A stretch of 64,000 nt of DNA from Escherichia coli O127:H6 str. E2348/69 (GTDB lineage: Bacteria; Pseudomonadota; Gammaproteobacteria; Enterobacterales; Enterobacteriaceae), in the NCBI RefSeq assembly GCF_000026545.1, contig NC_011601.1, one strand, 5' to 3'. Position numbers: made by a program. Positions 57,301 through 59,640 of this stretch are shown piece after piece. The stretch's first letter is position 1. The number at the start of each line of letters is the position of its first letter.

Positions 57301-59640
57301 AGGCGCTGGCATTGGGCGTCAATCATATTGATACCAGCGACTTTTATGGTCCGCACGTCACCAATCAGATTATCCGCGAAGCGCTTTATCCGTACTCTGA
57401 CGACCTGACAATTGTCACTAAAATTGGTGCGCGGCGTGGAGAGGACGCTTCCTGGTTACCCGCATTTTCTCCGGCAGAGCTGCAAAAAGCGGTACACGAT
57501 AATCTACGTAATCTCGGCCTGGACGTACTGGATGTGGTTAACCTGCGCGTTATGATGGGGGATGGTCATGGCCCAGCGGAAGGATCGATTGAAGCCAGCC
57601 TTACCGTGCTGGCGGAGATGCAACAACAAGGCCTGGTAAAACATATTGGCCTGAGTAACGTCACACCGACGCAGGTTGCAGAGGCGCGAAAGATTGCCGA
57701 AATCGTCTGCGTGCAGAACGAATACAACATTGTCCACCGAGCTGATGACGCAATGATTGATGCTTTGGCTCGTGATGGCATTGCCTACGTGCCATTCTTT
57801 CCGCTCGGGGGCTTTACGCCGCTGCAATCCTCCACGCTTTCCGATGTTGCTGCGAGCCTTAATGCGACACCAATGCAGGTGGCGCTGGCGTGGCTGTTAC
57901 AGCGTTCACCGAATATTTTGCTGATTCCTGGCACCTCTTCGGTGGGACATCTGCGGGAGAATATGGCGTCCGATGAATTAGTGCTAACGGATGACGTGCT
58001 GGCAACGCTGGACAGTATTTCGCAAAAGGCGGGTTAAATAAAAAAACCTCCCACTTTCGTGCTGTCTCTTGATCAGATCTCCTGATCAAGAGACTTCATC
58101 ACCAGGTAACCCTCAACCATATCCTGAAGTCTGAACCAGCCATCCCACATGACTACCCAACCGGGGCGACCGGTGCGTTTGCTGTCATGCCATCGCCCCA
58201 GTTTCGCCAGTTTCAGACAGGCCCATTTCAGTGTCGGCATCTGTGACGGAAGCGGTTTTCCTTCCAGCTTAACCCACAGCAGTTTCCACTCTGTCGGCGT
58301 CAGTATTTTCTCACAGCTGTCATTTTGTGTTTCTTCACTGATACCGCCCTGCCGCAGGCCCAGCACCCGCACCGCGATAAACGCCTTGATAACCACCATG
58401 CGCTCGAGGTTATCCCGGGTCTGCATTCGCAGCGATTCCACACATGTACCACCACTTTTCCACGCCTTGTGGTATTCCTCTATCAGCCAGCGTCGCTCGT
58501 AATGGCTGACGATACGTCGCGCATCGGCGGCACTCGCCACTTTTTCTGACGTCAGCAGATGCCAGCAGGCGCCGTCCTCTGCCTGCTCCCGGCAACAGAC
58601 ATACGTGAGCGGGAGCGCCTGGCCGCTGTTGTCGGGATTTTTTATGCTGACTTCGCTGTAACTGATGAACATCCGGGCCTGGCGGGCTGCCCGCCCGCCT
58701 TTTTGCATCACATTCAGCGTGTGGCTTCCCGCGGTTGCCAGGACTTCCGGCAGTTCGAAGAGCTTGCCGGGTGCTTCTTCCAGCCGGCGATTCTGTGCTG
58801 CACGCACCACGAAGCGCTGCCCGTGGCTGACTTTATAATGCAGGTAATGCCAGATATCCGCTTCCCGGTCACAGACAGTGATTACCCGTTTCTGTATCTC
58901 CCCCAGCCGTTCGGCCATGCGCTCCGAAGCCTGCTGCCAGCGGTAACTTTCTTTTTCTTCATAGGGACGTTCTTTTCGCTGGTGCTTAACACCGTAGGTG
59001 TCCGTGGCACGACTCCAGCGCTGCTGTTCGATAAGACCGACTGGCAGGGCGCTGTCGGGGGCGTACATCAGGACAGAGTGAGCCAGCAGCCCGCGCGTCT
59101 TCGGGTTAGTGGTGGTATTCCCCAGGTCATCAGATGCCGTACTGTGACTGAAGTTAATGGTGGTGGTGTCTTCCAGCGCGAGGAGCAGCGGATGAGCCTC
59201 ACATGCCCTTACAGTGGCGGTAAATCCGGCTTCGGCAATGGCTTGCGGGGACACAGACGGGTTACGTATCAGGCGGTACGCACCTTCAACCTGAGCAGTG
59301 GACTGGGATGATTTCACAATAGAAAGACCTGCATGCTGAGCGAGAGAAGAGGCCAGTGACACAAGGCGTCGTGTACGACGCGGATCACCGAGACGGGCAT
59401 GTCCAAACTGCTCGTTAGCCCATGAATAACAATCAGAAAGTACCATAACAGACCCGAAGAAAATGAAATATAAGAGAAGATCAACGGGTGAGGAAAAAGT
59501 TCAAAAAATCGCTGCCGGGGAGGAAGGAAACTACCGGATGGAAAGAGTCCCCCTAAAGCAGACTGACAGACATCACAAATCCCCGGGTGGGGATTTGTGT
59601 ATAAGAGACAGCACTTTCGTGGGAGGCATCATAAATCTTA

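What the first reader, a model, noticed from the sequence alone, without database searches (positions are those of the whole stretch)
58021..59640. IS copy B sits in the loop of the ydbC/azoR convergent terminator hairpin; ydbD-ynbABCD absent
Removing the IS and one repeat copy restores cctcccac-tttc-gtgggagg, an 8-bp stem and 4-nt loop preceded by an A7 run, lying between the ydbC stop and the azoR stop. The direct repeat therefore spans the loop and parts of both arms, and the insertion separates the stem halves by 1.5 kb, probably removing termination for azoR. The flanking identity is 10 bp, whereas copy A shows a clean 9 bp. In K-12 as I recall, ydbD and ynbA-D lie between ydbC and azoR; here the two genes abut.
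Basis: partly seen in the sequence, partly recalled or inferred. Interest (0 to 1): 0.5.

Follow-up and report, generated by a model that had tools for sequence, protein, structure and literature searches.

The report
ISEc13 inserted in azoR terminator hairpin
A Tn5-like insertion sequence (ISEc13) sits exactly in the middle of the stem-loop terminator behind the azoR gene of EPEC strain E2348/69; the event itself is ordinary and strain-specific, but a survey shows that this IS consistently lands in such C-run/G-run inverted repeats.

Summary
The window is E. coli O127:H6 E2348/69. Copy B (58062-59611) is a 1550-bp ISEc13 (IS4 family, IS50/Tn5 subgroup). IS-free relatives carry the predicted empty site aaaaaaaCCTCCCACtttcGTGGGAGG between the pdxI (ydbC) and azoR stops. 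The insertion adds 1560 bp, so the 10-bp duplication is real; copy A gives 9 bp.

On the azoR strand the hairpin (GAAA loop, then U7) is a canonical intrinsic terminator. On the pdxI strand it has no U tract.

pdxI and azoR abut in 646 of 5426 complete E. coli genomes and in E. marmotae. This is an old, ancestral-like haplotype, not an IS-mediated deletion.

New result: the hairpin hit is not chance. Of 64 distinct ISEc13 half-sites, 54 carry a C-run 10-13 nt from the IS end (background 4%, P~1e-64). The site consensus is CCCC-T-[8-10 bp duplicated]-A-GGGG. Eight of 15 complete sites are perfect stem-loops of at least 7 bp centred on the duplication, several between convergent genes. The duplication length is 8, 9 or 10 bp, checked against empty sites.

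The most likely mechanism is a staggered-cut palindromic target motif, as in IS231A, Tn5 and Tn10, rather than hairpin sensing. The effect on azoR termination is inferred, not measured. Interest is modest.

The parts
57171..58037 (+). pdxI (ydbC), pyridoxine 4-dehydrogenase. Its last ~70 bp belong to the E2348-type haplotype, which differs from K-12.
   Evidence: ORF list, RefSeq annotation, divergence profile along the gene.
58040..58046 (.). A7 run. On the minus strand this is the U7 tract of the azoR terminator, now 1.56 kb away from the upstream half of the stem.
   Evidence: Sequence; terminator scan of the empty site.
58047..58061 (.). Left half of the split hairpin: arm cctcccac (58047-58054), loop tttc (58055-58058) and gtg (58059-61). 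Duplication copy 1 is 58052-58061.
58062..59611 (-). ISEc13 copy B, 1550 bp. Its ends are CTGTCTCTTGATCAGATCT (IE-like, at 58062) and CTGTCTCTTATACACAAAT (OE-like, reverse complement at 59611).
   Evidence: RefSeq annotation 'IS4-like element ISEc13 family transposase'.
58073..59446 (-). Transposase, 457 aa, Tn5-like. DDE (LEDTT, VCDREAD) and the Y-2-R-3-E-6-K motif (YERRWLIEEYHKAWK) are conserved. It is co-oriented with azoR.
   Evidence: PDB Tn5 transposase E = 6e-84 with alignment; Pfam PF14706 and PF01609.
58064..58094 (.). 13-bp perfect inverted repeat at the tnp-distal IS end (gtctcttgatcag / ctgatcaagagac, three GATC sites). It forms a strong hairpin on both strands.
   Evidence: Sequence; folds.
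59576..59597 (-). IS-internal hairpin CAAAUCCCC-ACCC-GGGGAUUUG just inside the tnp-proximal end. It has no U tract. It is the first structure that an azoR read-through transcript meets.
   Evidence: Fold; not called as a terminator.
59612..59626 (.). Right half of the split hairpin: duplication copy 2 (59612-59621) and arm gtgggagg (59619-59626).
59638..60243 (-). azoR, FMN-dependent NADH azoreductase. Homology with K-12 resumes exactly at its stop codon.
11196..12763 (+). ISEc13 copy A (11205-12754) with its 9-bp duplication ctgttctgg (11196-11204, 12755-12763). It lies inside ycjT, 189 bp before the stop. The site CCCT-N10-AGGG has only weak symmetry.

Best explanation
A recent cut-and-paste transposition of ISEc13 into E2348/69 or its immediate O127:H6 lineage. 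ISEc13 is a single-ORF DDE transposase element of the IS4 family, IS50/Tn5 subgroup. It inserted into the 40-bp spacer between the convergent genes pdxI and azoR. The staggered cuts were 10 bp apart and centred on the dyad of the azoR intrinsic terminator (GCCUCCCAC-GAAA-GUGGGAGGU-U7).

The site was not hit by chance. ISEc13 selects a palindromic target motif: a C-run on each strand about 10-13 nt 5' of the joint. The full site reads CCCC-T-[8-10 bp duplicated, often C...G]-A-GGGG. I infer that the two-fold symmetric transpososome reads this motif on duplex DNA. GC-rich terminator stems match the motif and tolerate insertions, so many surviving copies sit in stem-loops between genes.

Inferred consequences:
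- The two stem halves are now 1560 bp apart, so the canonical azoR terminator is destroyed.
- azoR transcripts run into the IS in the sense direction of tnp. They meet only an IS-internal hairpin without a U tract.
- pdxI transcripts run antisense into tnp and meet terminator-like sites inside the IS.

The absence of ydbD-ynbABCD is a separate, older feature of the haplotype.
For: Shown:
- Identity of the element.
- Empty site and 10-bp duplication. The insertion is present in only 3 of 5426 genomes, all O127:H6, and copy B is 100% identical to copy A.
- Terminator anatomy and fold.
- Target motif: 54 of 64 distinct half-sites have at least 3 C at positions -13 to -10, against 4.2% background (binomial P = 3e-64). 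Position counts are given.
- Fifteen distinct complete sites have duplications of 8 bp (9 sites), 9 bp (5) and 10 bp (1). Five of these lengths were verified against real empty sites.
- Eight of the 15 have a perfect stem of at least 7 bp centred on the duplication. Three of the surveyed sites (L008-L010), plus copy B, lie about 25 nt from the stops of two convergent genes.
- One phage site is occupied in both orientations with the same duplication, so it was hit independently.
- No terminator-like site lies on the minus strand between the azoR stop and tnp in the occupied state. Five lie on the plus strand inside the IS.

From the literature:
- Palindromic target motifs with informative bases outside the duplication are general for cut-and-paste elements. 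Examples are IS231A GGGNNNNNCCC, Tn5 AGNTYWRANCT and Tn10 GNNGCTNAGCNNC (PMC2577343, Table 1).
- The IS50 subgroup gives direct repeats of 8-9 bp (PMC2266710, Table 1).
Against: - All sites are natural, surviving insertions. Purifying selection against intragenic copies will by itself enrich intergenic stem-loops, so the raw preference of the transposase is not measured.
- Left and right arms of a site are more complementary to each other than mock pairings of arms from different sites: 6.8 versus 5.1 of 12 positions (P = 0.001), and 2.67 versus 1.66 of 7 positions beyond the consensus (P = 0.004). This leaves room for a structural component.
- What sets the duplication length (8, 9 or 10 bp) is unresolved. 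My ruler model, in which the joint lies a fixed distance from the far C-run, was not supported by a position-weight-matrix test.
- There are no transcript data for azoR or pdxI.
- The survey draws on few genomes. Ten sites come from a single strain, and many others are one-sided contig ends.
Confidence: 0.85

Rival explanations
1. Structure-specific targeting. The transposase or transpososome recognises an extruded hairpin or cruciform (or a hairpin on single-stranded DNA at the replication fork) rather than a duplex sequence motif. Terminator stem-loops would then be the true targets, and the stem-loop geometry would set the stagger of 8-10 bp.
For: - Eight of 15 complete sites are perfect stems of at least 7 bp. 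In all eight the duplication is exactly centred on the dyad, so its parity follows the loop parity.
- Complementarity within a site exceeds that of mock pairings, also at non-consensus positions.
- Only about 5-10% of background CCC...GGG motif occurrences in 93 kb are extended palindromes.
Against: - Seven of 15 sites have only the 3-5 bp C/G arms, or an off-centre symmetry. Copy A, inside ycjT, is one of them.
- The conserved bases are specifically C and G, not any complementary pair.
- Tn5-type transposases act on duplex targets (established knowledge).
- Selection for intergenic survival can explain the excess of true hairpins.
Confidence: 0.2
2. Chance. The IS inserts more or less at random, like Tn5, and this copy simply happened to fall in a hairpin.
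For: Copy A lies inside a gene at a weakly symmetric site. Tn5 itself has only a weak consensus (PMC2577343).
Against: Fifty-four of 64 half-sites carry the C-run against 4% expected (P ~ 1e-64). The same site has been used in both orientations.
Confidence: 0.02
3. The IS caused the loss of ydbD-ynbABCD, through an adjacent deletion or recombination between IS copies. The pdxI/azoR junction would then be a product of the IS.
For: ISEc13 copies do recombine. L012 and L013 show an inversion between two copies. The trmL-lldD locus shows a deletion associated with IS ends.
Against: - Copy B has an intact duplication.
- An identical IS-free junction occurs in 643 genomes.
- The pdxI 3' end diverges gradually from the K-12 and UTI89 alleles: identity 0.95, 0.88 and 0.54 over the last 270 bp.
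- E. marmotae has the same adjacency with an orthologous hairpin, and C. koseri also has pdxI abutting azoR.
Confidence: 0.02
4. The hairpin is a true bidirectional terminator that serves both pdxI and azoR, so the insertion removes termination for both genes.
For: The stem is flanked by A7 on one side and lies 9 nt after the pdxI stop. The plus-strand fold is also stable: -17.0 kcal/mol, z = -3.65. Hairpins flanked by an A tract upstream and a U tract downstream are known to terminate in both directions (general knowledge).
Against: The plus strand has no U tract after the stem (CAUCAUAAAUCUUAU). The scan calls the site only on the minus strand.
Confidence: 0.3

Closest known systems
IS50 / Tn5 (IS4 family, IS50 subgroup)
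   Same: - Single DDE transposase, with the PDB Tn5 transposase matched at E = 6e-84 over residues 6-453.
- DDE and YREK motifs are conserved.
- Ends begin CTGTCTCTT. By recollection, one end equals the IS50 inside end and carries GATC (Dam) sites.
- It duplicates about one helical turn of target DNA.
   Different: - Tn5 gives a fixed 9-bp duplication and a weak consensus, A-GNTYWRANC-T.
- ISEc13 gives 8-10 bp, with 8 the commonest, and a strong consensus that lies mainly outside the duplication (C4 and G4 arms).
- The duplicated segment tends to start with C and end with G, the reverse of Tn5.
IS231A (IS4 family) target GGG-N5-CCC
   Same: - Same IS family.
- The target motif is a G/C-run inverted repeat around a duplication of variable length (subgroup 10-12 bp). 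Insertion specificity is documented (PMC2577343 Table 1; PMC2266710).
   Different: - The polarity is opposite: GGG...CCC lies inside the duplication in IS231A, whereas CCCC...GGGG flanks it here.
- Different subgroup and different ends (CAT...).
- Found in Firmicutes.
IS4 and ISRm22 (IS4 / IS4Sa subgroups), and REP/BIME-targeting ISs such as IS1397 and ISKpn1
   Same: - These elements show conserved left and right target arms (PMC2266710).
- All nine copies of ISRm22 sit in REP palindromes, and several ISs insert at the symmetry axis of REP hairpins (PMC1525189).
- Several ISEc13 sites are also C/G-rich intergenic repeat palindromes (L012, L013, L022, L128, trmL-lldD).
   Different: - ISEc13 targets are not one repeat family. 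They include unique terminators, phage and plasmid sites, and coding DNA.
- IS1397 and ISKpn1 belong to the IS3 family (from memory).
Rho-independent terminator
   Same: On the azoR strand there is a 9-pair GC-rich stem with a GNRA-type GAAA loop and a U7 tract immediately after it, 11 nt downstream of the stop codon. An orthologous hairpin with a compensatory pair change is present in E. marmotae.
   Different: In E2348/69 it no longer exists as a unit. Its two halves are 1.56 kb apart.

Membership tests
IS4 family, IS50 subgroup (ISEc13) | Single-ORF DDE transposase homologous to the Tn5 transposase, with D, D, E and Y-(2)-R-(3)-E-(6)-K motifs | tested here: met
   PDB 4DM0/1MUH at E = 6e-84. 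The alignment shows LEDTT, VCDREAD and YERRWLIEEYHKAWK. Pfam PF14706 and PF01609.
IS4 family, IS50 subgroup (ISEc13) | Terminal inverted repeats of the CW------Y---CA-A--W- type; size 1350-1550 bp | tested here: met
   Ends CTGTCTCTTGATCAGATCT and CTGTCTCTTATACACAAAT; length 1550 bp. Compared with Table 1 of PMC2266710.
IS4 family, IS50 subgroup (ISEc13) | Target duplication of 8-9 bp | tested here: met
   Nine sites give 8 bp and five give 9 bp. One site, copy B, gives 10 bp, which is outside the published range. Five lengths were verified against empty sites.
IS4 family, IS50 subgroup (ISEc13) | Named ISEc13 by a curated source | tested here: met
   RefSeq: 'IS4-like element ISEc13 family transposase', WP_000244358.1. 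Cluster names also give 'transposase of ISEc13'. ISfinder itself could not be consulted.
Rho-independent terminator (of azoR) | GC-rich stem-loop followed directly by a U tract, downstream of a stop codon | tested here: met
   Empty site on the minus strand: 9 pairs (6 GC), 4-nt loop, tail TTTTTTATTT. Free energy -18.7 kcal/mol, z = -4.1.
Rho-independent terminator (of azoR) | Actually terminates transcription | not testable with these tools
   There are no transcript data. The supporting evidence is conservation: 643 genomes carry the junction, and E. marmotae has an orthologue with a compensatory pair (L121 9873-9894).
Bidirectional (convergent) terminator | U tract after the stem on both strands | tested here: not met
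   The plus-strand tail is CATCATAAATCTTAT. The scan reports the site only on the minus strand.
Staggered-cut palindromic target-site motif (IS231A, Tn5, Tn10 type) | Two-fold symmetric consensus, including positions outside the duplication | tested here: met
   C at positions -13 to -10 in 49, 56, 48 and 45 of 64 half-sites from both IS ends. T/C at -9, C at -8, G at -1.
Staggered-cut palindromic target-site motif (IS231A, Tn5, Tn10 type) | The same site is usable in both orientations | tested here: met
   L011 and L026 show the same 8-bp duplication with opposite IS orientation. This is a single example.
Hairpin- or ssDNA-targeting elements (IS200/IS605 type) | HUH (Y1) transposase; no target duplication; insertion 3' of a specific tetra- or pentanucleotide | tested here: not met
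   The element has a DDE transposase and 8-10 bp duplications.

The most novel reading that the evidence does not exclude
ISEc13 is a Tn5-family element with a genuine safe-haven strategy. Its transposase would read GC-rich terminator or repeat stem-loops, by structure or by a long symmetric motif. It would centre itself on the dyad and adapt its stagger (8, 9 or 10 bp) to the geometry of the stem-loop. This would make it a naturally site-selective relative of the most widely used 'random' transposase, and its target-reading determinants could be transplanted into Tn5.
Probability: 0.2. Interest if true: 0.55.

Novelty: new member of a known kind. Interest (0 to 1): 0.3.

Why it matters
- For the locus: little. 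It is one strain-specific IS insertion that probably changes the 3' ends of the azoR and pdxI transcripts in a much-used EPEC reference strain. It may also couple tnp expression to azoR read-through.
- For the IS: E2348/69 carries about 30 copies of ISEc13 or parts of it. Knowing that the element aims at CCCC...GGGG inverted repeats, many of them terminators between convergent genes, has three uses. It helps explain how so many copies are tolerated. It predicts where new copies and IS-mediated rearrangements will occur. It adds a strongly site-selective member to the Tn5 subgroup, whose model enzyme is valued for near-random insertion.
- For the haplotype: the pdxI/azoR versus pdxI-ydbD-ynbABCD-azoR polymorphism is a clean three-allele marker in E. 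coli. Its ancestral-like form is the one found here.

Tried and rejected
1. Ruler model for the duplication length (joint at a fixed 9 nt from the far C-run, so duplication = 18 minus arm spacing). It fits copy B, L008 and the 8-bp sites by eye. However, a position weight matrix trained on the 8-bp sites scored the 9- and 10-bp sites better when aligned on the near edge in 9 of 12 halves. The question is undecided and the model is not claimed.
2. Exact scans of GTDB species representatives. The IS end gave 0 hits. The hairpin 20-mer gave only 3 unrelated MAG hits, so this route yielded no outgroup information. Outgroups were obtained instead through PdxI homologues.
3. A chimeric query to see whether E2348/69 carries the ynb genes elsewhere. 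K-12-type genomes filled all listed rows, so nothing was learned.
4. The E2348/69 genome paper (PMC2612414) is not held in the library. 'ISEc13' occurs once each in 8 open-access papers, all inventories. I found no open-access paper on IS targeting of terminators.
5. Rfam: no known RNA family in 57000-60700 at E <= 1.
6. The 96%-identical ISEc13 relative next to tRNA-Arg (L110, L111) has no duplication and rearranged flanks, so it is uninformative.
7. A background comparison of motif-bearing sites is too small (93 kb) to separate transposase preference from post-insertion selection.
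Full report
**1. What is at the coordinates**

The 3.7 kb around the finding is 100% identical to the chromosome of E. coli E2348/69 (O127:H6) and to two other O127:H6 assemblies. RefSeq annotates pdxI (formerly ydbC), an 'IS4-like element ISEc13 family transposase', azoR and hrpA there.

The element spans 58062-59611 (1550 bp). Its ends are CTGTCTCTTGATCAGATCT and, on the other strand, CTGTCTCTTATACACAAAT. A 457-aa ORF on the minus strand occupies 58073-59446. A second copy at 11205-12754 is 100% identical and inverted.

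The protein matches the Tn5 transposase structures at E = 6e-84 over nearly its whole length. The catalytic D, D, E and the Y-2-R-3-E-6-K signature are conserved. It carries Pfam Tnp_DNA_bind and DDE_Tnp_1. Size, ends and duplication length fit the IS50 subgroup as tabulated by De Palmenaer et al. (PMC2266710).

**2.

- The flanks carry cactttcgtg on both sides (58052-61 and 59612-21).
- Strains A25 and Z1323HEC0423 have the uninterrupted sequence ...gggttaaataaaaaaaCCTCCCACtttcGTGGGAGGcatcataaatctta... between the two stop codons.
- The empty locus is 1560 bp shorter than the occupied one. Ten bases were therefore duplicated if the IS is taken as CTG...CAG.
- K-12 ycjT shows that copy A duplicated nine bases. 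The one-base difference between the copies does not depend on where the IS ends are drawn.

**3. The hairpin**

- As RNA on the azoR strand it reads GCCUCCCAC-GAAA-GUGGGAGGU followed by UUUUUUAUUU. It folds at -18.7 kcal/mol (z = -4.1). It is the only terminator-like site in the empty junction.
- On the pdxI strand the same stem is stable (-17.0 kcal/mol) but is followed by CAUCAUAAAUCUUAU. It is therefore a canonical terminator for azoR only.
- E. marmotae has an orthologous hairpin at the same place, GCCTCCCGC-actc-GCGGTAGGC (L121 9873-9894). One A:T pair is changed to G:C on both sides. This is modest comparative support for a conserved structure.

**4. The missing ydbD-ynbABCD**

K-12 has pdxI-ydbD-ynbA-ynbB-ynbC-ynbD-azoR. 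Among 5426 complete E. coli genomes there are three arrangements:

| Arrangement | Genomes |
|---|---|
| At least 80% of the 7.2-kb K-12 segment present | 3755 |
| UTI89 type, lacking only ydbD | roughly 1000 |
| pdxI and azoR abutting, IS-free | 643 |
| pdxI and azoR abutting, with the IS | 3 |

A further figure is that 655 genomes have no match at all to the K-12 segment.

- Homology between the E2348 type and K-12 ends about 70 bp before the pdxI stop and resumes exactly at the azoR stop.
- Against UTI89, which has the same B2 background, pdxI is nearly identical for 600 bp. Identity then decays to 0.95, 0.88 and 0.54 towards the junction, while azoR is 99% identical.
- The C-terminus encoded here (...DDVLATLDSISQKAG) resembles that of E. 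marmotae (...DDVLATLDSIAKKAS) and not that of K-12 (...EEVLSTLDGISRE).
- In E. marmotae, pdxI and azoR abut with a 40-bp spacer. In Citrobacter koseri they also abut, and ynbABCD-like genes lie upstream of pdxI.

The adjacency is thus ancestral-like, or was re-imported from a divergent lineage. It has nothing to do with the IS. I could not check directly that E2348/69 lacks the ynb genes elsewhere (one search failed), though the counts make their presence unlikely.

**5. Is the hairpin hit a coincidence? No**

I collected other ISEc13 copies from four sources:
- the exact transposase sequence and its variants in public assemblies;
- scans of viral contigs for both IS ends;
- a scan of metagenome contigs for the tnp-proximal IS end;
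- the window itself.

After removing duplicates there are 64 distinct half-sites and 15 distinct complete sites.

- Aligned at the IS junction, positions -13 to -10 are C in 49, 56, 48 and 45 of 64 half-sites. Position -9 is T or C, -8 is mostly C and -1 mostly G.
- Fifty-four of 64 half-sites have at least three C at -13 to -10, against 4.2% of positions in the window (binomial P = 3e-64). Most of the ten exceptions have the C-run shifted by one or two bases.
- Because both IS ends show the same half-site, the full site is an inverted repeat: CCCC-T-[duplicated segment]-A-GGGG.
- Copy B fits. Both of its halves read ...cctCCCac....gtg| with CCC at -12 to -10.

**6. Anatomy of the complete sites**

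- The duplication is 8 bp in nine sites, 9 bp in five and 10 bp in one (copy B).
- Five lengths were verified against real empty sites:

| Site | Duplication |
|---|---|
| mog/satP | 8 bp |
| ybaY/ybaZ | 8 bp |
| agp/yccJ | 9 bp |
| ycjT (copy A) | 9 bp |
| pdxI/azoR (copy B) | 10 bp |

- Eight of 15 sites are perfect stems of 7-12 bp. In all eight the duplication is exactly centred on the dyad, so loops of even length give 8 or 10 bp and the 5-nt loop gives 9 bp.
- Four sites have a T-run and look like canonical terminators.
- Three of the surveyed sites (L008-L010), plus copy B, lie within about 25 nt of the stops of two convergent genes.
- The other seven sites have only the 3-5 bp C/G arms, or a slightly off-centre symmetry. 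Copy A, inside ycjT, is one of them.
- One phage site is occupied in both orientations with the same 8-bp duplication, which means two independent hits.

**7. Mechanism**

[quoted passage not shown] A two-fold symmetric transpososome reads the same short motif on each strand, partly outside the duplicated segment.

- This is documented for IS231A (GGGNNNNNCCC), Tn5 (AGNTYWRANCT), Tn10 (GNNGCTNAGCNNC) and others (PMC2577343, Table 1).
- 'Spectacular' specificity in the target arms is noted for IS4-subgroup elements and for ISRm22 (PMC2266710). ISRm22 sits in REP palindromes (PMC1525189).
- ISEc13 differs from Tn5 in three ways: the strength and position of the motif (C4/G4 arms outside the duplication), the C...G polarity of the duplicated segment, and a duplication of 8-10 bp rather than a fixed 9 bp.

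GC-rich terminator stems both match the motif and tolerate insertions. Together these explain the many copies in stem-loops.

A structural component (hairpin or cruciform recognition) is not excluded.
- True left and right arms are more complementary than mock pairings: 6.8 versus 5.1 of 12 positions (P = 0.001), and 2.67 versus 1.66 of 7 positions beyond the consensus (P = 0.004).
- Few background CCC...GGG motifs are extended palindromes.
- However, all data are surviving natural insertions, so selection against intragenic copies is a sufficient alternative explanation.

What fixes the stagger at 8, 9 or 10 bp is unresolved. My fixed-distance ruler model failed its test.

**8. Consequences at this locus (inferred, not measured)**

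- The upstream half of the azoR terminator stem now adjoins the tnp-proximal IS end. The other half and the U7 tract lie 1.56 kb downstream.
- No terminator-like site lies on the minus strand between the azoR stop and the tnp start.
- The first structure met by an azoR transcript is the IS hairpin CAAAUCCCC-ACCC-GGGGAUUUG (59576-59597), which has no U tract. azoR transcripts therefore probably extend into the IS in the sense direction of tnp.
- pdxI transcripts enter the IS antisense to tnp. They pass the 13-bp terminal palindrome (58064-58094) and meet terminator-like sites at 58526-58699.
- No Rfam family lies in the region.

**9. Novelty and verdict**

- The insertion itself is annotated in RefSeq and is ordinary. 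It is strain-specific and recent: it occurs in 3 of 5426 genomes, and the two copies in the window are identical.
- The haplotype lacking ydbD-ynbABCD is common.
- The addition made here is the target specificity and variable duplication length of ISEc13. I did not find these described in the searchable literature; ISEc13 appears once each in eight open-access papers, all inventories. ISfinder and the E2348/69 genome paper could not be consulted.
- This makes ISEc13 a new, strongly selective member of a known kind: IS4-family elements with palindromic target motifs. It is of modest interest to transposon specialists and of practical use for predicting IS sites in EPEC.

Noticed in passing
window 56010-56369: A feaR-like HTH pseudogene remnant directly abuts a paaX remnant. 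feaB, tynA, paaZ and paaA-K are therefore deleted in E2348/69. The same junction is present in strain A25.
   Followed up: partly
window 11196-12763: ISEc13 copy A interrupts ycjT (GH65 kojibiose phosphorylase) 189 bp before its stop. RefSeq marks both pieces as pseudogenes. The target has only weak CCCT...AGGG symmetry, and the 9-bp duplication is off the dyad by half a base.
   Followed up: yes
window 58064-58094; locus L112 399-433: The tnp-distal IS end contains an inward-facing second copy of its own terminal repeat, forming a 13-bp palindrome with three GATC sites. A solo 35-bp perfect palindrome made of two complete such ends (CTGTCTCTTGATCAGGAGATCTGATCAAGAGACAG) lies between trmL and lldD in many E. 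coli. At that position K-12 has about 78 bp between two C/G-rich hairpin repeats. It looks like a minimal derivative or a rearrangement scar of this IS.
   Followed up: partly
L012 and L013 (CP148541.1, 2304117-2307890 and 2364594-2368367): Two ISEc13 copies 60 kb apart in opposite orientation have exchanged flanks. The 8-bp duplications match only when the left flank of one copy is paired with the right flank of the other. This indicates an inversion by recombination between the copies.
   Followed up: partly
L011 versus L026 (phage KilA-N / antiterminator Q region): The same target (gcccctGTTTATGCaggggc) is occupied by ISEc13 in both orientations in different contigs, with the same 8-bp duplication. 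This marks an insertion hot spot.
   Followed up: yes
L121 9001-10510; L123 3307-10538: E. marmotae has ydbL-pdxI-azoR with an orthologous terminator hairpin. Citrobacter koseri has ynbA-ynbB-(acyltransferase)-ynbC-ynbD-like genes upstream of pdxI, and a REP-like palindrome between pdxI and azoR. The position of the ynb cluster relative to pdxI therefore differs between genera.
   Followed up: partly
window 58526-58943, + strand: Five terminator-like sites lie inside the IS on the strand antisense to the transposase gene (1.6 expected from shuffles). One example is GGCGGGCTGCCCGCCCGCC followed by TTTTTGC at 58681-58699. They may limit antisense read-through from outside genes.
   Followed up: no
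L012, L013, L022, L128, L112-L115: Several ISEc13 targets belong to one kind of C/G-rich intergenic repeat (CCCTCACCC..CCCTCTCCCC / GGGGAGAGGGTTAGGG..). From memory it resembles the E. coli boxC repeats. The identity was not tested.
   Followed up: no
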